From NCBI RefSeq assembly GCF_003018255.1, contig NZ_CP027440.1: 64,000 nucleotides of DNA; one strand, written 5' to 3'. A program made the position numbers and the translations under genes. The notes beneath the pieces are model-generated. The model searched no databases. It had not been told where the DNA came from and worked only from the letters and a program-made list of their open reading frames with translations. This DNA is from Escherichia coli. GTDB lineage: Bacteria; Pseudomonadota; Gammaproteobacteria; Enterobacterales; Enterobacteriaceae. Below, in pieces: positions 1 to 7,160 of this stretch. The number at the start of each line of letters is the position of its first letter. The stretch's first letter is position 1.

Positions 1-759
1 CACGCCGGCTTTTTCGGCAAATGCGTGCGTCGCCTGCTGGCAATCCTGAGTGGCGGACATTAATCCAGCCAGTAACTGGTGGGAGTAATCGGCGTGTTTA
101 TTTTCCAGCGCCAGAATCAGTTGCTTAATATGTGCCAGTGCCACCGGACCACATTTTTCCAGCTGCGCTAACTGGTTCGCCATCCAGCTTTCCACCTGTT
201 CTTTTTCTACCACTTCATCAATTAAATTCGCCACCTGGGCTTCCTGCGCCGTCAGGCGTTTACCCAGCATCAGCATCTGGCGACCGACCACCGGGCCAAC
301 CTGATTAAGCACGCGTTCAATGCCCATCCAGCCAGGCACCATGCCGAGCATCACTTCCGGGTTAGAGAATTTCGCGCCGGGGCGAGCGATACGAATATCG
401 CAGCACAAGGCAAGTTCAATACCGCCACCGATGGTATGACCGTTGAGATTCGCAACGGTTAATTGGGGTAAGTTGCGCAGGCGATTAAAAACCTCGTTAC
501 CGCGTTTAATCCATTTTCTGCCCATATCTAATGGCGAATAGGCCGACCACGATTTAATATCGCCGCCCGCACAAAAGAATTTATCGCCGGTTGCCGTTAA
601 TTCGACTAATCGTAATGTGGTGTCGTTTTCAATTTCATTTAAATAATGGTCGAGAGATTCGATCATTTCTTCATTAATAGCATGACATTTATCTTCACGG
701 TTCAATGTCAGGCGGCAAGAAGCCGCCGCTCTGCTGAACAGAACGGGTTGGTCACTCAT
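1..759 (-). CDS. enoyl-CoA hydratase/isomerase (crotonase-fold) family protein; 3' end lies beyond the window edge
   Basis: Open minus-strand frame starting at ATG 757-759 (SD-like aggaa upstream) and running off coordinate 1; my manual translation begins MSDQPVLFSRAAASCRLTLNREDKCHAINEEMI and contains a crotonase-like oxyanion-hole region (HTIGGGIELALCCDIRIA). Not in the ORF track because no stop lies in the window. Confidence 0.65.
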   Translation of the reverse strand, partial: MSDQPVLFSRAAASCRLTLNREDKCHAINEEMIESLDHYLNEIENDTTLRLVELTATGDKFFCAGGDIKSWSAYSPLDMGRKWIKRGNEVFNRLRNLPQLTVANLNGHTIGGGIELALCCDIRIARPGAKFSNPEVMLGMVPGWMGIERVLNQVGPVVGRQMLMLGKRLTAQEAQVANLIDEVVEKEQVESWMANQLAQLEKCGPVALAHIKQLILALENKHADYSHQLLAGLMSATQDCQQATHAFAEKAGV

Positions 760-768
760 GATTATTCC

Positions 769-1611
769 TTAGCAATAATGTGCGATGCGATCGACGCTAA
801 TATCCAGCGTGCTGTTAATATCTTTCTGCCACCAGTACGGTGAGAATATTTCCAGTTCAATAGCGCCATTAAATCCGGCGTTTTCAACCAGCCGACGAAT
901 TGACGGAATATTGATGACACCATCTCCCGGCATTCCACGGTCATTGACCAGATCGGTGGTCGGCACTAACCAGTCGGAAACATGAAACGCGAGGATGCGT
1001 TTTCCGGCACGCAGGATCTGACTGGCGAGATCCGGGTCCCACCAGACATGGTAGACATCTACCGCCACGCCGAGGCCAAATTCGCCATCGGGATCGAGTT
1101 CATCACACCAGTCCAGCGCCTGACGTAACGTGCACAGACAAGAACGATCGGCAGCAGTCATCGGGTGCAGTGGCTCCAGTGCAATTGGCACGCCGACCTC
1201 TTTCGAATGTGGCAGCAACTGGCGAATCCCTTGTTTCACCTGTTCCCGTGCTTCGTACAGATCTTTTGTTCCCATTGGCAGACCGCCAACCACCTGCATG
1301 TAACAGGCGGCATTTAGCACAGCGGCATCGTCCAGCGCCCGGCGGTTATCATCAATCGCCAGCTTGCGCTCCGCCAGCGTCGGTGCGGTGTAGTAGGTGC
1401 TACGGCACAAACCGGAAACGTTTATGTTACTGGCAGCAAGCTGGCGGGCGATTTGCTGGAGATCTTCACCCTGCAACTCCCTGCGCCAGGGGGCAATGGC
1501 GCCAATACCGCGTGCGGCGCAGGCATCAATAATGGCGGGTAGCGGCGTTTTATAGCCCAGTGTCGCGGTATTGATACTGAATAAATCCGGGCGTTGTAAC
1601 AGATCTCTCAT
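769..1611 (-). CDS. sugar phosphate isomerase/epimerase-like protein (xylose-isomerase-like TIM barrel)
   Basis: 280-aa ORF; family call from overall sequence character (my recognition, no search). Start ATG preceded by gagg SD; separated by about 10 bp from the SDR gene upstream and the crotonase gene downstream (operon). Confidence 0.6.
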   Translation of the reverse strand: MRDLLQRPDLFSINTATLGYKTPLPAIIDACAARGIGAIAPWRRELQGEDLQQIARQLAASNINVSGLCRSTYYTAPTLAERKLAIDDNRRALDDAAVLNAACYMQVVGGLPMGTKDLYEAREQVKQGIRQLLPHSKEVGVPIALEPLHPMTAADRSCLCTLRQALDWCDELDPDGEFGLGVAVDVYHVWWDPDLASQILRAGKRILAFHVSDWLVPTTDLVNDRGMPGDGVINIPSIRRLVENAGFNGAIELEIFSPYWWQKDINSTLDISVDRIAHYC

Positions 1612-1620
1612 GATTCAGCC

Positions 1621-2412
1621 TCAGAAGCGCGGCATACTTAAGCCGCCGTCGATGGCGACCGCCTGACCACAGGTGTAAATCAGTTTACCTTCCGCCATCG
1701 CGCGGACAGTGGAAGCAATATCAGCCGGATAACCCCAACGTCCCCACGGCACCAGACCTTTGGCAATCAGTTCGTCGTAATAGGCCGTTGCCGGAATAGT
1801 CATATCGGTTTTGATGAGACCAGGACGCACTTCATATACGCCAATTTGTTCATTACAAAGGCGAGCAGCAAATAGACGAGCAGCGGCAGAGACGGCAGTT
1901 TTGGCAATGGTATATTCGCCGCGATTCATCGCCAGCATGATGGCGTTGATGGAACTGACGAAAATAATCGAGCGGTGCGGCAGTTCTGCTTCCGGTTTCG
2001 GCTGTGCCAGTAAGCGCTTACTGAATGCCTGAGCGAGGAAGAACGGTGCGCGGGTGTTAATGGCAATATTTTGGTCGAAGCTGTCTGGTTCGAGGTCGAG
2101 AAGATCACCGCGTTTTTTCACTGAAATGCCTGCGTTGTTGAGCAGGCAGTCCAGACGTCCCCACTGGTTTTGCGCTGCGTCGAGCATCTCTTCATGCAGG
2201 GAGAGATCGCCCACATCAGCAGGGAAGCAAATCACTTCCACGCCTTCCGCCAGACATTCTTGTTGTGTGGCATGTAATTTTTCTACGCTATCCGCATCCG
2301 GACGATCATTAATCAGCAGATTAAATCCGCCACGCGCAAGCTCCAGCGCACAGCCCTTTCCAATACCACGAGCGGCTCCGGTAATCACGGCAACAGGAAG
2401 AGTGGATTTCAT
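1621..2412 (-). CDS. short-chain dehydrogenase/reductase (SDR) family oxidoreductase
   Basis: 263-aa ORF with N-terminal TGAARGIG cofactor motif and YTIAK catalytic Y-x3-K motif; first gene of a 3-gene minus-strand operon. Confidence 0.8.
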   Translation of the reverse strand: MKSTLPVAVITGAARGIGKGCALELARGGFNLLINDRPDADSVEKLHATQQECLAEGVEVICFPADVGDLSLHEEMLDAAQNQWGRLDCLLNNAGISVKKRGDLLDLEPDSFDQNIAINTRAPFFLAQAFSKRLLAQPKPEAELPHRSIIFVSSINAIMLAMNRGEYTIAKTAVSAAARLFAARLCNEQIGVYEVRPGLIKTDMTIPATAYYDELIAKGLVPWGRWGYPADIASTVRAMAEGKLIYTCGQAVAIDGGLSMPRF

Positions 2413-2624
2413 ACAATAGCTCTCTTTTTTTGAATTTTGTTTCCTTAGTGATGATTAGCTTGCGACTGGAGGGTAAAAAGATCAACCATCTAGTTGGTTG
2501 ATATGCGATGGCGATCACAGGACATTTGATAACCTGATGAAAGTACAAGTTTTTGCCCTTTTTTCTGAAGCTGAAATCAAATCAGGTTATGATAGTCACC
2601 ACGAAGAGGTCGTGGGGAAGCGTT

Positions 2625-3272
2625 ATGTATCTTGATACCAGCAACGTACAGAGCCTGAAAGAAAAGCTGCTGTTATGCGCGGTTAATGAATTTGCCGAAT
2701 ATGGTTACGAAGGGGCCAGAGTCGATAATATCGTCAAGGCCGCGGGGTGCAGTAAACAGACGGTTTATCACCACTTTGGTAATAAAGAAAATTTATTTAT
2801 CGAAGTACTGGAATATACCTGGAACGATATTCGACAAAAAGAAAAGGCCCTTGATTTCTCAGATCTTCCGCCACAGAAAGCCATTGAGAAAATAATCGAT
2901 TTTACATGGGATTATTATATTTCTAATCCCTGGTTTTTAAAAATTGTGCATAGTGAAAATCAAAGTAAGGGTGTGCATTATGCAAAGTCACAGCGTCTTT
3001 TAGAAATTAACCATGCGCACTTGCAGTTAATGGAATCCTTATTGGATGAAGGGAAGAAAAACAATATTTTTAAGCCAGATATCGACCCATTGCAGGTGAA
3101 TATTAATATTGCTGCGCTTGGGGGATATTATTTGATCAACCAGCATACGCTTGGTCTGGTTTATCACATCAGTATGGTTTCACCCCAGGCACTGGAAGCC
3201 AGACGTAAGGTCATCAAAGAGACAATCCTTAGCTGGCTTTTGGTTGACCCTTCATCTACCGCGCGCGAATAA
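2625..3272 (+). CDS. TetR/AcrR family transcriptional regulator
   Basis: ORF track frame 2553..3272; N-terminal HTH typical of TetR ([37 protein letters not shown]). I prefer ATG at 2625 (gggaag SD-like upstream) over the ORF-track start; divergent from the SDR operon. Confidence 0.75.
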
Positions 3273-5040: not shown

Positions 5041-6453
5041 ATGGTAGATCAGGTAAAAGTCGTTGCCGATGATCAGGCTCCGGCTGAACAGTCGCTACGG
5101 CGCAATCTCACAAACCGACATATTCAGCTTATTGCCATTGGCGGTGCCATTGGTACAGGGTTGTTTATGGGGTCCGGCAAAACGATTAGCCTTGCCGGGC
5201 CGTCGATCATTTTCGTTTATATGATCATCGGTTTTATGCTCTTTTTCGTGATGCGGGCAATGGGGGAATTGCTGCTTTCGAATCTGGAATACAAATCTTT
5301 TAGTGACTTCGCTTCCGATTTACTCGGGCCGTGGGCAGGATATTTCACCGGCTGGACCTACTGGTTCTGCTGGGTTGTAACCGGTATGGCAGACGTGGTG
5401 GCGATCACGGCTTATGCTCAGTTCTGGTTCCCCGATCTCTCCGACTGGGTCGCCTCGCTGGCGGTGATAGTGCTGCTGCTGACGCTTAACCTCGCCACCG
5501 TGAAAATGTTCGGTGAGATGGAGTTCTGGTTTGCGATGATCAAAATCGTCGCCATTGTGTCGCTGATAGTCGTCGGCCTGGTCATGGTGGCGATGCACTT
5601 TCAGTCACCGACCGGTGTGGAAGCGTCATTCGCGCATTTGTGGAATGATGGCGGCTGGTTCCCGAAAGGTTTAAGTGGCTTCTTTGCCGGATTCCAGATA
5701 GCGGTTTTCGCTTTCGTGGGGATTGAGCTGGTAGGTACAACAGCTGCGGAAACCAAAGATCCAGAGAAATCACTGCCACGCGCGATTAACTCCATTCCGA
5801 TCCGTATCATTATGTTCTACGTCTTCGCGCTGATTGTGATTATGTCCGTGACGCCGTGGAGTTCGGTAGTCCCGGAGAAAAGCCCGTTCGTTGAACTGTT
5901 TGTGTTGGTAGGTTTGCCTGCGGCTGCCAGCGTGATCAACTTTGTGGTGCTGACCTCTGCGGCGTCTTCCGCTAACAGCGGTGTCTTCTCTACCAGCCGT
6001 ATGCTGTTTGGTCTGGCCCAGGAAGGTGTGGCACCGAAAGCGTTCGCTAAACTCTCTAAGCGCGCAGTACCCGCGAAAGGGCTGACCTTCTCTTGTATCT
6101 GTCTGCTCGGCGGCGTGGTGATGTTGTATGTGAATCCCAGCGTGATTGGCGCGTTCACGATGATTACAACCGTTTCCGCGATTCTGTTTATGTTTGTCTG
6201 GACGATTATCCTTTGCTCGTACCTGGTGTATCGCAAACAGCGTCCTCATCTGCATGAGAAGTCGATCTACAAGATGCCACTCGGCAAGCTGATGTGCTGG
6301 GTATGTATGGCGTTCTTTGTGTTTGTTCTGGTGTTGTTGACACTGGAAGATGACACCCGCCAGGCGCTGCTGGTTACCCCGCTGTGGTTTATCGCGCTGG
6401 GGCTGGGCTGGCTGTTTATTGGTAAGAAGCGGGCTGCTGAACTGCGGAAATAA
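5041..6453 (+). CDS. cycA: D-serine/D-alanine/glycine:H+ symporter CycA (APC family)
   Basis: 470-aa polytopic membrane ORF, recognised as CycA. Confidence 0.9.
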   Translation: MVDQVKVVADDQAPAEQSLRRNLTNRHIQLIAIGGAIGTGLFMGSGKTISLAGPSIIFVYMIIGFMLFFVMRAMGELLLSNLEYKSFSDFASDLLGPWAGYFTGWTYWFCWVVTGMADVVAITAYAQFWFPDLSDWVASLAVIVLLLTLNLATVKMFGEMEFWFAMIKIVAIVSLIVVGLVMVAMHFQSPTGVEASFAHLWNDGGWFPKGLSGFFAGFQIAVFAFVGIELVGTTAAETKDPEKSLPRAINSIPIRIIMFYVFALIVIMSVTPWSSVVPEKSPFVELFVLVGLPAAASVINFVVLTSAASSANSGVFSTSRMLFGLAQEGVAPKAFAKLSKRAVPAKGLTFSCICLLGGVVMLYVNPSVIGAFTMITTVSAILFMFVWTIILCSYLVYRKQRPHLHEKSIYKMPLGKLMCWVCMAFFVFVLVLLTLEDDTRQALLVTPLWFIALGLGWLFIGKKRAAELRK

Positions 6454-6465
6454 TCGCATTATCAT

Positions 6466-6494
6466 GCTGGATGGCGCAATGCCATCCAGCTTTT
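6466..6494 (+). terminator. intrinsic terminator after cycA
   Basis: GCTGGATGGC-gcaat-GCCATCCAGC perfect 10-bp stem followed by TTTT. Confidence 0.7.
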
Positions 6495-6497
6495 AGA

Positions 6498-7160
6498 TCA
6501 CTCACCCGCCAGCGCGCGCGGGAATAGTACATTGTTTTCCAGACTGATGTGCTCCATCAGGTCATCAATCAGTTCATTAATGCCGTTATACATCGCTTTC
6601 CAGGTGGTGCAGGCTTCCGGCGGCGGTGTGACGTTATTGGTGGTGTGTTTGATCACTTCCAGCAGTTCGCCCGCTTCATCGTGCTCGCTTTCCATTACGC
6701 TGATTGGCCCCATTGCCTGGCTGCCCATGCCTTGTTTAATCATCGGGAAGAGAATTTGCTCTTCTTTCATCATGTGGCTGGAAAGCTCTTCATGCAGCAT
6801 AGTCAGGTATTTTGTCAGCCCTTTTGGCACACTTGGTTTGTCGGCGTGAACGCGCTCGACTTTAGTCGCTTGCAGGATCAGCTCCGGCAGTTGCTCGCGG
6901 TGGCGATCGTGGTAGCGCACGATGATATGGTCGATGATTTCTGCCAGCGGGGCGCTACGCCAGTCTTTCTCAATCGGTTGTTCAGCAAGCTTTGCCAGTT
7001 CGGCTTCAATGACGTCAACATCCAGTTCTTTACGTGCCGCCGCGCGCGCCAGCGTCTGCTTACCGCCACAGCAGTAATCCATATCATATTTACGAAACAG
7101 AGCCGAAGCGCGAGGAATAGAGAGCGCCAGTTCACCTAAAGGTTGGTCGCGATAAGCCAT
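6498..7160 (-). CDS. ytfE: iron-sulfur cluster repair di-iron protein YtfE (RIC)
   Basis: 220-aa ORF with hemerythrin-like His/Glu motifs; recognised as YtfE. Confidence 0.9.

What the first reader, a model, noticed from the sequence alone, without database searches (positions are those of the whole stretch)
1..3272. Accessory TetR-controlled three-enzyme operon (SDR, TIM-barrel isomerase/epimerase-like, crotonase) at the edge of the window
Three minus-strand genes are packed with about 10-bp spacers and their own SD sequences (SDR 1621-2412, xylose-isomerase-like TIM-barrel protein 769-1611, enoyl-CoA hydratase/isomerase from 759 off the window edge). A TetR regulator (2625-3272) is transcribed divergently. 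As far as I recall, K-12 has only a TetR-like pseudogene remnant (ytfA) at this position, so this is a variable-genome module. The enzyme combination (crotonase-fold + sugar-phosphate-isomerase-like TIM barrel + SDR) does not match any named pathway I recognise, which makes it the best candidate here for an uncharacterised catabolic system. The rest of the operon presumably continues beyond coordinate 1.
Basis: partly seen in the sequence, partly recalled or inferred. Interest (0 to 1): 0.6.

Follow-up and report, generated by a model that had tools for sequence, protein, structure and literature searches.

The report
Uncharacterised sugar-acid CoA operon in E. coli
The three genes are the front end of a six-to-eight-gene, TetR-controlled operon that K-12 has lost but 57% of complete E. 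coli genomes keep; it most likely breaks down an imported uronic-acid-like compound through CoA-bound intermediates, and no enzyme in it has a published function.

Summary
SDR (1621-2412), TIM barrel (769-1611) and crotonase (1-759, five codons cut off) lie on the minus strand, 9 bp apart, each with its own ribosome-binding site. A TetR gene (2625-3272) diverges from them. The closest genome (99.6% identical) shows that the operon continues with a YdiF-like CoA-transferase, a 693-aa stand-alone SdhA/NadB-like flavoprotein and a TRAP transporter.

- **Distribution:** 3,118 of 5,426 complete E. coli genomes carry the core. 1,446 carry the TRAP genes and 1,685 an ACS-family MFS gene instead. K-12 keeps only a 3' TetR fragment.
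- **Regulation:** a 22-bp palindrome (2481-2502) recurs upstream of the SDR gene in gamma- and beta-proteobacteria.
- **Substrate clues:** the binding protein is 54-58% identical to homologues inside canonical glucuronate clusters. The TIM barrel is structurally closest to the inosose isomerase IolI. Distant relatives of the flavoprotein sit beside sugar transporters, KDG-kinase-like kinases and aldolases.
- **Pathway logic:** no thiolase was found near the cluster in any locus examined, and acyl-CoA dehydrogenases replace the flavoprotein in some clusters.

Best reading: catabolism of a uronate-like sugar acid by beta-oxidation-type chemistry on a CoA thioester. The substrate is unknown. I found no publication or curated family that assigns a function. 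Interest is moderate.

The parts
1..759 (-). Enoyl-CoA hydratase (crotonase) gene. The window holds codons 1-253 of 258; the last five codons and the stop lie beyond coordinate 1.
   Evidence: ORF and translation. The full gene is L001:17983-18759. It matches many enoyl-CoA hydratase models at about 1e-40, none reaching its cut-off. Both catalytic glutamates are present, E115 in GGGIEL and E135 in NPEV. The best solved relative is 3-hydroxypropionyl-CoA dehydratase 5zai at 143 bits.
769..1611 (-). Metal-dependent xylose-isomerase-like TIM-barrel gene (280 aa).
1621..2412 (-). NAD-type short-chain dehydrogenase gene (263 aa), first gene of the operon.
   Evidence: NCBIfam PRK12745, 417 bits against a cut-off of 250; FabG TIGR01830 reaches only 126 against 298. 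It has TGAARGIG, Y167/K171 and Asp36. It is the neighbour most often linked to the flavoprotein gene, in 33 of 81 loci. A PRK12745-class SDR also sits beside the flavoprotein gene in Subdoligranulum.
2481..2502 (.). 22-bp palindrome ATCAACCAtCTAGtTGGTTGAT in the SDR/TetR intergenic region; the probable TetR operator.
   Evidence: Inverted repeat, 11-nt arms, no gap. It is the only match in the 64-kb window to TCAACYA-N6-TRGTTGA; none of 100 shuffles gave a match. Related palindromes or half-sites lie upstream of the SDR gene in E. coli, Brenneria, Phytobacter, Mangrovibacter, Pseudescherichia, a Rhodocyclaceae MAG and Succinatimonas; E. albertii keeps a weaker 8-nt-arm version.
2413..2624 (.). 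Divergent 212-bp control region between the SDR and TetR start codons.
   Evidence: Sequence. The consensus scan found no sigma-70 promoter match here, so the promoters are not located.
2625..3272 (+). TetR/AcrR-family regulator gene (215 aa). Its 3' end overlaps the 3' end of convergent ytfB by 17 bp.
   Evidence: N-terminal matches to many TetR-family models, none reaching its cut-off. Orthologues carry Pfam TetR_N plus TetR_C_29. RefSeq annotates it as intact here, and as a 3' fragment in K-12.

Best explanation
The three genes are the promoter-proximal part of one TetR-repressed catabolic operon: SDR, TIM barrel, crotonase, family-I CoA-transferase, a stand-alone SdhA/NadB-like flavoprotein, and a carboxylate transporter. 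The transporter is a TRAP system in the genome closest to this window and an ACS-family MFS in about half of carrier strains. The window ends inside the crotonase gene, so which transporter this strain carries is not shown.

Shown: the gene order, the tight spacing, the protein families, the intact catalytic motifs, the conserved palindrome, and the distribution.

Inferred: the substrate is an imported uronic-acid-like sugar acid, related to but distinct from D-glucuronate. It is handled with CoA-thioester intermediates in these steps:
1. The CoA-transferase activates the carboxyl group.
2. The carbons next to the thioester undergo beta-oxidation-type chemistry: flavoprotein dehydrogenation, crotonase hydration or dehydration, and NAD-dependent oxidation by the SDR.
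3. No thiolase is present. CoA is therefore handed back by the same transferase.
4. The IolI-like metal TIM barrel isomerises, epimerises or decarboxylates the resulting keto-acid into something core metabolism accepts.
5. TetR binds the palindrome at 2481-2502 and is released by the substrate or an intermediate.

My confidence differs by layer: about 0.85 for the operon and its regulation, about 0.6 for the sugar-acid substrate class, and about 0.3 for the order of steps.
For: **Operon.** Eight same-strand genes have gaps of 52 bp or less, and the CoA-transferase stop overlaps the flavoprotein start. The same order, plus a MaoC gene, occurs in a Rhodocyclaceae MAG.

**Regulation.** The TetR gene is divergent and the palindrome is conserved across genera.

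**Sugar-acid substrate.**
- The TRAP binding protein is 54-58% identical to homologues inside UxaC/UxuB/UxuA/KdgK/GH2 glucuronate clusters of Vibrio, Aeromonas and Providencia; the Aeromonas cluster also carries Eda.
- Its best solved relatives include hexuronate binders: 4n8y was solved with galacturonate and 4x8r with glucuronate, and Bamb_6123 (4n15) served as the modelling template for the glucuronate binder STM3169.
- The binding proteins linked to this operon differ at pocket-adjacent motifs, AENS-VM against AENN-PT/IP.
- The alternative transporter belongs to the D-galactonate-transporter subfamily (315 bits; best solved relative DgoT).
- The TIM barrel is structurally closest to keto-cyclitol and keto-sugar isomerases.
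- Flavoprotein relatives at 53-59% identity sit with LacI, a sugar ABC transporter, GMC and Gfo/Idh/MocA oxidoreductases, an aldehyde dehydrogenase, a KdgK-like kinase and a class I aldolase.
- In Subdoligranulum the neighbours are an IlvD/Edd-type dehydratase, a TIM epimerase, a Zn-ADH and the same SDR family.

**CoA chemistry.**
- The catalytic residues of the crotonase, the CoA-transferase and the SDR are intact.
- The CoA-transferase/crotonase pair accompanies the flavoprotein gene in alpha-, beta-, gamma- and delta-proteobacteria.
- Acyl-CoA dehydrogenases take the flavoprotein's place next to SDR and TIM genes in Marinobacterium and in another contig.
- No thiolase was found near the cluster in any locus examined.

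**Flavoprotein.** It has the FrdA/SdhA fold (TM up to 0.8). The carboxylate-binding Arg is conserved (R469). There is no signal peptide.
Against: - No experiment or publication links any of these proteins to a substrate.
- Several relatives (Brenneria, Phytobacter, Lentisphaeria, Coraliomargarita) have SDR, TIM and flavoprotein without a CoA-transferase or crotonase within 10 kb. The flavoprotein may therefore act on the free acid, and the CoA pair may be a separate step.
- Brenneria uses a PcaK-like aromatic-acid symporter (369 bits), which fits a cyclitol or aromatic carboxylate at least as well as a sugar acid.
- The flavoprotein lacks the first active-site histidine of NadB (an invariant Gly, SQFG, aligns just before NadB H244; the FrdA H232 equivalence is from my own knowledge of those enzymes) and has no electron-transfer partner in the operon. 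Its reaction and its direction are therefore open.
- No promoter was located.
Confidence: 0.45

Rival explanations
1. Conversion of a cyclitol carboxylate (quinate, shikimate or dihydroshikimate). The SDR oxidises a ring hydroxyl. The IolI/IolE-like TIM barrel isomerises or dehydrates the ring ketone. The fumarate-reductase-like flavoprotein reduces or introduces the ring C=C next to the carboxylate. The CoA-transferase and crotonase then process the cyclohexane-carboxyl-CoA, either as an anaerobic electron sink or as a feed into ring degradation.
For: - IolG-like Gfo/Idh/MocA genes sit in the Phytobacter, Lentisphaeria and Coraliomargarita clusters.
- Brenneria's transporter is PcaK-like.
- In a betaproteobacterial cluster the linked acyl-CoA dehydrogenase scores against cyclohexane-1-carbonyl-CoA dehydrogenase (303 bits, second after acryloyl-CoA reductase at 360) and comes with ETF genes.
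- FAD_binding_2 reductases of other gut bacteria reduce the enoate of shikimate (bioRxiv 10.1101/2022.12.26.521950).
- From my own knowledge, quinate is similar in shape to a pyranuronate, so a uronate-type binding protein could bind it.
Against: - The nearest relatives of the binding protein are in glucuronate clusters, not quinate clusters.
- Alpha-proteobacterial and Firmicute relatives sit with sugar ABC transporters, KdgK-like kinases, aldolases and an IlvD/Edd dehydratase.
- The TIM barrel shows no sequence-level match to the solved dehydroshikimate dehydratases AsbF and QuiC1.
- A crotonase has no obvious beta-hydroxyl to act on in quinoyl-CoA or dihydroshikimoyl-CoA (chemical reasoning).
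Confidence: 0.2
2. CoA-dependent dehydratase logic, as in carnitine metabolism (CaiB/CaiD). The transferase and the crotonase together dehydrate a 2,3-dihydroxy acid, or a uronate across C4-C5, to a 2-keto-3-deoxy acid that enters KdgK/Eda. SDR, TIM barrel and flavoprotein act on the free acid before or after this step; for example the SDR and TIM barrel could serve as KduD-like and KduI-like enzymes.
For: - KdgK-like kinase genes directly follow the flavoprotein gene in 16 loci, and Eda-like aldolase genes directly precede it in 12 Planctomycete loci.
- The CoA-transferase and crotonase genes are adjacent to each other wherever both were seen.
- The SDR scores 117 bits against KduD models.
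- SDR/TIM/flavoprotein modules exist without any CoA genes.
Against: - The flavoprotein, the most conserved component, has no role in a redox-neutral dehydration.
- The CoA-transferase here is family I (YdiF-like), not the family III CaiB type (the CaiB family assignment is from my own knowledge).
- Acyl-CoA dehydrogenases replacing the flavoprotein point to a real dehydrogenation of a thioester.
Confidence: 0.2
3. An ordinary short-chain fatty-acid or lipid module, as the database names suggest ('3-ketoacyl-ACP reductase', 'enoyl-CoA hydratase', 'acetate/3-ketoacid CoA transferase'). This would be an ato/ydiF-like beta-oxidation set.
For: The CoA-transferase is 385 bits to E. coli YdiF and 381 bits to Staphylococcus FadX. 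The crotonase resembles short-chain enoyl-CoA hydratases. The TetR's best, weak hit is Bacillus FadR (47 bits).
Against: - There is no thiolase.
- The transporters are of sugar-acid type.
- A keto-sugar/cyclitol-type TIM barrel is conserved in the operon.
- The SDR fails the FabG models.
- The contexts in other phyla are carbohydrate contexts.
Confidence: 0.07

Closest known systems
Acyl-CoA route for 2-deoxy-D-ribonate in Klebsiella michiganensis (Price et al. 2019, PMC6365646)
   Same: A sugar acid is taken up by MFS transporters and converted to its CoA thioester. It is oxidised at the beta-hydroxyl by a hydroxyacyl-CoA dehydrogenase, and a CoA-transferase is in the cluster. It is the only documented precedent I found for sugar-acid catabolism through acyl-CoA intermediates in Enterobacteriaceae.
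   Different: That cluster has a CoA synthetase, a thiolase and a glycerate kinase, and no flavoprotein, crotonase or TIM barrel. It is a different locus with different protein families.
Carnitine system CaiTABCDE of E. coli (from my own knowledge)
   Same: One operon holds a transporter, a CoA-transferase, a crotonase-family (de)hydratase and a flavin-dependent enoyl-CoA reductase or dehydrogenase. CoA is recycled from product to substrate, and there is no thiolase.
   Different: CaiB is a family III transferase and CaiA an acyl-CoA dehydrogenase with FixABCX as electron donor. Here the transferase is family I and the flavoprotein is SdhA/NadB-like with no partner. Cai has no SDR or TIM barrel, and its substrate is a quaternary amine, not an anion carried by a TRAP or ACS transporter.
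Canonical hexuronate pathway UxaC-UxuB-UxuA-KdgK-Eda with a TRAP or ExuT transporter
   Same: The TRAP binding protein is 54-58% identical to those of Vibrio, Aeromonas and Providencia glucuronate clusters. The alternative MFS belongs to the ACS family, which by my recollection also contains ExuT.
   Different: None of UxaC, UxuB or UxuA is encoded here; the enzymes are SDR, AP_endonuc_2 TIM barrel, crotonase, CoA-transferase and flavoprotein. The operon-linked binding proteins differ from the glucuronate-cluster ones at conserved motifs.
Complex II flavoprotein / L-aspartate oxidase family (FrdA, SdhA, NadB)
   Same: Four-domain fold (Foldseek E = 1e-30, TM up to 0.8 to FrdA). Pfam FAD_binding_2. 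The Arg that binds the substrate carboxylate is conserved (R469).
   Different: About 17% identity. An invariant Gly aligns just before the NadB H244 position, and the capping domain is unalignable. There is no Fe-S subunit gene. About 100 extra C-terminal residues are present. It forms a distinct family with 416 representatives below E = 1e-30 in the 50%-clustered library.
Inosose isomerase IolI and other keto-sugar or cyclitol TIM barrels (IolE, YcjR, OtnI/YgbM, QuiC1)
   Different: Only 15-20% identity, and no NCBIfam equivalog comes near its cut-off. The only close relative, SMc04130, is uncharacterised.

Membership tests
TetR/AcrR repressor with divergent target operon | N-terminal TetR-type helix-turn-helix domain | tested here: met
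   Residues of about 7-70 match many TetR-family NCBIfam models. Orthologues carry Pfam TetR_N plus TetR_C_29.
TetR/AcrR repressor with divergent target operon | Palindromic operator in the divergent intergenic region | tested here: met
   22-bp palindrome at 2481-2502, unique in the window with no shuffle matching, and conserved upstream of the SDR gene in gamma- and beta-proteobacteria.
TetR/AcrR repressor with divergent target operon | Ligand-dependent release from DNA and derepression of the operon | not testable with these tools
   Needs EMSA, ITC and expression data.
FabG (3-oxoacyl-ACP reductase), the name in the annotation | Reaches the curated FabG equivalog score | tested here: not met
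   TIGR01830 126 bits against 298, and PRK05653.1-3 113 against 296. Only the legacy model PRK12745 is passed (417 against 250). A second PRK12745-class SDR found here also sits next to the flavoprotein gene, in a carbohydrate context.
Classical SDR | TGxxxGxG cofactor motif and Ser-Tyr-Lys catalytic residues | tested here: met
   TGAARGIG at 11-18, Y167 and K171; Asp36 suggests NAD rather than NADP.
Crotonase-fold enoyl-CoA hydratase | Both catalytic glutamates | tested here: met
   E115 in GGGIEL and E135 in NPEV. No specific equivalog reaches its cut-off.
Family I CoA-transferase (YdiF/Pct type) | Fused alpha/beta CoA_trans domains with the catalytic glutamate | tested here: met
   385 bits to YdiF (PDB 2ahu) over residues 8-508. 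Matches to subunit A and B models. SVEQG motif with E324.
Xylose-isomerase-like TIM barrel (AP_endonuc_2) | Pfam domain and conserved metal-ligand residues | tested here: met
Named TIM-barrel enzymes (IolO, hydroxypyruvate isomerase, FrlC, OtnI) | Reaches the curated equivalog score | tested here: not met
   21-28 bits against cut-offs of 300-353.
Fumarate reductase / succinate dehydrogenase / L-aspartate oxidase | FAD_binding_2 fold with capping, helical and C-terminal domains | tested here: met
   Pfam E = 4e-25. Foldseek TM 0.67/0.80 to FrdA. Model pLDDT 89.7.
Fumarate reductase / succinate dehydrogenase / L-aspartate oxidase | Full set of dicarboxylate-binding and catalytic residues (two His, two Arg) | tested here: not met
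   In one search NadB H244 immediately follows the aligned block; the family's invariant G276 (SQFG) aligns just before it and no His follows. The capping domain does not align. Only the R386 equivalent (R469) is kept. The residue numbers for NadB and FrdA are from my own knowledge.
Fumarate reductase / succinate dehydrogenase / L-aspartate oxidase | Fe-S partner subunit (complex II, TfrB) encoded alongside | tested here: not met
   No such gene is in the operon.
TRAP transporter (DctPQM type) | Binding protein, small permease and large permease encoded together | tested here: met
   In the closest genome L001: NF037995 252 bits, TIGR00786 461 bits, and a YiaM-like small subunit. These genes lie outside the window. 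1,446 genomes carry this version.
Canonical glucuronate/galacturonate isomerase pathway | UxaC, UxuB/UxaB and UxuA/UxaA encoded with the transporter | tested here: not met
   These genes are absent from the operon but present next to the 54-58% identical binding proteins of other genera.

The most novel reading that the evidence does not exclude
The operon encodes a route not yet described for a uronic-acid-like or cyclitol carboxylate. In it a stand-alone SdhA-like flavoprotein (a family with several hundred 50%-identity clusters across Proteobacteria, Planctomycetota, Verrucomicrobiota, Lentisphaerota and Firmicutes) dehydrogenates the C-C bond next to the carboxyl of a polyhydroxylated acid or its CoA ester. 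A CoA-transferase/crotonase pair and a keto-sugar TIM barrel then complete a 'beta-oxidation without thiolase' that shortens or opens the sugar acid.
Probability: 0.3. Interest if true: 0.65.

Novelty: new variant of a known kind. Interest (0 to 1): 0.5.

Why it matters
- **A gap in E. coli metabolism.** This is a complete catabolic module (regulator, transporter, five enzymes) with no assigned substrate. More than half of sequenced E. coli carry it, including BL21 and ATCC 25922. The reference strain K-12 has lost it, which is probably why it has escaped study.
- **Annotation reach.** Finding the substrate would give a function to several large protein families at once: the SdhA-like flavoprotein, the SMc04130-type TIM barrel and the PRK12745 SDRs. 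It would probably also correct the name '3-ketoacyl-ACP reductase'.
- **Gut ecology.** It would show which gut or plant-derived acid separates carrier strains from non-carriers.
- **Tractability.** The work can be done directly in standard laboratory strains.

Tried and rejected
- **Literature.** All ten full-text searches found no paper on this cluster. They covered PDB codes 7VPF/3JU2/3QC0, SMc04130, WP accessions, ytfA plus TRAP, quinate/shikimate plus CoA enzymes, Prokka-style gene names, DUF993, enzyme-combination terms and deoxyribonate.
- **False leads in the literature.** The BEN2908 genome paper's TRAP cluster is a different locus, ygiQ..ftsP. The K. michiganensis deoxyribonate cluster is also a different locus.
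- **Dehydroshikimate dehydratase identity for the TIM barrel.** Rejected at the sequence level: no match to AsbF or QuiC1 in the PDB sequence search. They appear only as fold neighbours.
- **Periplasmic respiratory reductase for the flavoprotein.** Rejected: the N-terminus shows no signal-peptide-like sequence by eye, and I found no cytochrome or FMN_bind domain.
- **CoA-transferase/flavoprotein fusion.** The 1,078-aa E. coli entry P0002 is 99% identical to the separate genes. It probably reflects a lost stop at the 4-bp overlap, so I did not use it as evidence. The genuine distant fusion, P0149, is to an OYE-like domain, not to a CoA-transferase.
- **Metagenome contigs.** Those carrying distant flavoprotein homologues were mostly too short to be informative.
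- **Promoter and terminator scans.** They gave nothing above the shuffle expectation.

Full report
**1. The observation**

The window is E. coli chromosome (ytfB, fklB and cycA follow the region). The minus strand carries three ORFs:
- SDR, 1621-2412, 263 aa.
- TIM barrel, 769-1611, 280 aa.
- Crotonase, from 759 off the window edge.

A TetR gene (2625-3272) diverges from them. The two spacers are 9 bp. Each start codon is preceded by GAGG or AAGGA, overlapping or following the upstream stop codon. The family assignments are secure: AP_endonuc_2 at E = 1.2e-37, SDR model PRK12745 at 417 bits, and many enoyl-CoA hydratase and TetR models. The finding as described is confirmed.

**2. The rest of the operon**

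The best match among 5,426 complete E. coli genomes is NZ_AP025214.2, 99.6% identical over 3,272 bp. I read its flanks as locus L001, where window coordinate = L001 coordinate minus 18,000. The window lacks only the last five codons of the crotonase. Further genes follow on the same strand:
- A 513-aa CoA-transferase, 9 bp downstream of the crotonase gene.
- A 693-aa 'FAD-binding protein', whose start overlaps the transferase stop by 4 bp.
- The TRAP small permease, large permease and binding protein, with gaps of 20, 42 and 52 bp.

A hipB/hipA-like pair and rplI come next. The unit therefore has eight genes plus TetR. Consensus scans located no promoter in the control region and no excess of terminators inside the operon.

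**3. The proteins**

- **CoA-transferase:** a fused family-I enzyme, 385 bits to E. coli YdiF (PDB 2ahu) and 381 bits to Staphylococcus FadX. The glutamate motif SVEQG is present.
- **Crotonase:** has both catalytic glutamates, so it is a true hydratase/dehydratase. It reaches no specific equivalog cut-off.
- **SDR:** has TGAARGIG, Y167/K171 and Asp36, which suggests NAD. It fails the FabG models and passes only the legacy model PRK12745.
- **TIM barrel:** 51% identical to the uncharacterised S. meliloti protein SMc04130 (PDB 3qc0/3ju2). E146, D185, H210 and E252 are invariant in 19 homologues.
- **Flavoprotein, fold:** Pfam sees only FAD_binding_2, and I saw no signal-peptide-like N-terminus. 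The model is confident (pLDDT 89.7, pTM 0.92) and has the four-domain fold of FrdA/SdhA/NadB, with TM up to 0.8 but about 17% identity.
- **Flavoprotein, active site:** in profile alignments the carboxylate-binding Arg of NadB/FrdA is conserved (R469). An invariant Gly (SQFG) aligns just before the first active-site His of NadB, and the capping domain does not align. No Fe-S partner is encoded.
- **Flavoprotein, family:** it belongs to a distinct family with 416 representatives below E = 1e-30 in a 50%-clustered library.

**4. Distribution within E. coli**

- 3,118 of 5,426 complete genomes carry at least 80% of the 3.27-kb query. The others keep only the last 403 bp or 47 bp.
- K-12 MG1655 has yjfZ plus a TetR 3' fragment. 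O157:H7 and strain W have IS609 inside the remnant.
- Alleles fall into bands of about 98-99%, 95% and 92% identity. This looks like an old, vertically inherited but repeatedly lost locus.
- BL21 and ATCC 25922 have a single MFS gene where L001 has the TRAP genes.
- 1,446 genomes carry the TRAP genes and 1,685 the MFS gene. Together these roughly account for all carriers.
- DNA homology between the two types breaks inside the flavoprotein gene. The proteins are about 98% identical up to roughly residue 612 and about 55% identical after it.
- The TRAP segment has lower G+C, 0.41-0.45 against 0.50-0.56.

So one enzyme set is coupled to either of two uptake cassettes. Which cassette the window's own strain has cannot be read from the window.

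**5. Regulation**

The intergenic region holds a 22-bp palindrome, ATCAACCAtCTAGtTGGTTGAT, at 2481-2502. It is the only match in the window to TCAACYA-N6-TRGTTGA, and none of 100 shuffles gave a match. Related palindromes or half-sites lie between the TetR and SDR genes in other E. coli, Brenneria, Phytobacter, Mangrovibacter, Pseudescherichia, a Rhodocyclaceae MAG and Succinatimonas; E. albertii keeps a weaker 8-nt-arm version. This is comparative evidence for a TetR operator. Binding and the inducer remain to be shown.

**6. Context in other organisms**

I scanned one genome per species with a profile of the flavoprotein. The scan gave 592 relatives, and I analysed the best 80 loci.

Most frequent neighbours:
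- The SDR, in 33 of 81 loci.
- The TIM barrel, in 14 of 81 loci.

Same or near-same operon:
- Brenneria: TetR | SDR-TIM-flavoprotein-MFS, with a PcaK-like MFS.
- Phytobacter, Mangrovibacter, Pseudescherichia and Escherichia sp. ESNIH1: TetR | SDR-Gfo/Idh/MocA-TIM-MFS-flavoprotein.
- Lentisphaeria and Coraliomargarita: TIM, Gfo/Idh/MocA, SDR and flavoprotein with no transporter. In Lentisphaeria they lie among housekeeping genes.
- A Rhodocyclaceae MAG: the E. coli operon plus a MaoC gene and the TRAP genes.

Carbohydrate contexts:
- A Rhizobium plasmid carries one 15-gene run: LacI, Gfo/Idh/MocA, CoA-transferase, crotonase, aldehyde dehydrogenase, a four-gene sugar ABC transporter, two GMC oxidoreductases, Gfo/Idh/MocA, flavoprotein (55% identical), a KdgK-like kinase and a class I aldolase.
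- Planctomycete loci place an Eda-like aldolase, the SDR, a BNR-repeat protein and an OYE/GltD fusion beside a 37-40% identical flavoprotein.
- Subdoligranulum variabile has an IlvD/Edd-type dehydratase, LacI, a TIM epimerase, an OYE-like protein, a Zn-ADH, a PRK12745-class SDR and the flavoprotein.

CoA contexts:
- A betaproteobacterial cluster: CoA-transferase, crotonase, TRAP, MaoC, acyl-CoA dehydrogenase, EtfBA, TIM, flavoprotein.
- A Desulfobacterales cluster combines the flavoprotein with acyl-CoA dehydrogenases, two SDRs, a CoA-transferase and a crotonase.
- In Marinobacterium and in another contig an acyl-CoA dehydrogenase, with ETF and ETF-QO genes nearby in Marinobacterium, stands next to the SDR and TIM genes where the flavoprotein would be.

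A thiolase did not turn up in any locus examined.

**7. Substrate class**

- **TRAP binding protein, solved relatives:** they include hexuronate binders. 4n8y was solved with galacturonate and 4x8r with glucuronate. Bamb_6123 (4n15) was the modelling template for the glucuronate binder STM3169.
- **TRAP binding protein, genomic relatives:** homologues at 54-58% identity in Vibrio cholerae, Aeromonas veronii and Providencia rettgeri lie inside canonical glucuronate clusters with UxaC, UxuB, UxuA and, variously, KdgK, Eda and a GH2 enzyme.
- **Operon-linked binding proteins:** those of E. coli, Klebsiella huaxiensis and Rhodocyclaceae (75-80% identical to each other) keep the arginine pair and the Asn/Asp framework. 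They differ from the glucuronate-cluster proteins at several conserved motifs, for example AENS-VM against AENN-PT/IP.
- **Alternative MFS:** it falls in the D-galactonate-transporter subfamily (315 bits), and its best solved relative is DgoT.

Taken with section 6, the simplest reading is a uronic-acid-like sugar acid that is not glucuronate itself. A cyclitol carboxylate such as quinate or shikimate remains possible. The points in its favour are the PcaK-like transporter in Brenneria, the IolI and QuiC1 fold neighbours, the IolG-like genes, and the known reduction of shikimate by FAD_binding_2 reductases in other gut bacteria.

**8. Mechanism**

Shown: the families, the intact catalytic motifs, the operon structure and the linkage patterns. 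The rest is inferred.

The enzyme set is that of one beta-oxidation turn: activation, flavin dehydrogenation, hydration, NAD-dependent oxidation. There is no thiolase, and the transferase belongs to the acetate/3-ketoacid class. Acyl-CoA dehydrogenases can stand in for the flavoprotein.

I therefore propose the following. The imported acid is converted to its CoA ester. The carbons next to the thioester are dehydrogenated, hydrated and oxidised. CoA is returned by the transferase. The TIM barrel then isomerises, epimerises or decarboxylates the resulting keto-acid.

In a uronate the carbons next to the carboxyl are C5 and C4. [quoted passage not shown] That parallel is chemistry from established knowledge and is not tested here.

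A close variant treats the transferase and crotonase as a CaiB/CaiD-like CoA-dependent dehydratase that produces a 2-keto-3-deoxy acid for KdgK/Eda. In that variant the SDR, TIM barrel and flavoprotein work on the free acid. Modules that lack any CoA genes favour this variant.

The direction of the flavoprotein reaction and its electron partner are unknown. Fusion or adjacency to OYE-like ene-reductase domains in distant members hints at coupled C=C chemistry.

**9. Comparison with known systems, and verdict**

The closest documented logic is the acyl-CoA route for deoxyribonate in Klebsiella and, from my own knowledge, the carnitine Cai system. Neither shares the locus or the key families.

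The proteins are members of well-known superfamilies. None reaches a curated functional family except the SDR, and that family's name looks unfounded.

This is a widespread, accessory, TetR-controlled catabolic operon of unknown substrate. It is moderately interesting: not a new kind of system, but a clear and easily testable gap in E. coli metabolism that also concerns several large uncharacterised families.

Noticed in passing
L001:11489-14595 versus L091:5984-7586 (outside the window, beyond coordinate 1): The same enzyme core is joined to either a TRAP system (1,446 genomes) or an ACS-family MFS (1,685 genomes) in E. coli. The recombination breakpoint lies inside the flavoprotein gene at about codon 612, and the TRAP segment has lower G+C.
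   Followed up: yes
L001:9670-11432; L092:4087-5850: A helix-turn-helix/HipA-like toxin-antitoxin pair sits between rplI and the operon in the closest genome and in ATCC 25922, where hipA is frameshifted. It is absent from BL21.
   Followed up: partly
window 2870-3272 and its counterparts in other genomes: Non-carrier strains keep only the 3' 403 bp of the TetR gene. K-12 has yjfZ next to it. O157:H7, W and others have an IS609 (tnpA plus insQ/TnpB) splitting the remnant. A few genomes keep only 47 bp.
   Followed up: partly
window 3256-3272: The TetR coding region and the convergent ytfB coding region overlap by 17 bp at their 3' ends.
   Followed up: no
window 6454-6497 versus L001:24578-26175: The closest genome has two extra genes between cycA and ytfE, one partial and one hypothetical protein. 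The window lacks them: here cycA (5041-6453) is followed directly by ytfE (6498-7160). The window's strain is therefore not identical to that genome.
   Followed up: partly
P0149 (metagenome protein); L064:4157-6796; L093:5756-7114: Distant members of the flavoprotein family are fused to, or sit beside, OYE-like (BaiCD/FadH-type) ene-reductase domains.
   Followed up: partly
P0308-P0322 (E. coli and Shigella proteins): Some E. coli and Shigella genomes encode a 207-aa TIM-barrel variant only 72% identical over 64% of the query. It may be a divergent or truncated allele of the same gene.
   Followed up: no
L089 and L090: A protein of unknown function, DUF993 (PF06187, E = 3e-180), is embedded in or adjacent to the acyl-CoA dehydrogenase/SDR/TIM clusters of Marinobacterium and another contig. 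No paper mentions the family.
   Followed up: partly
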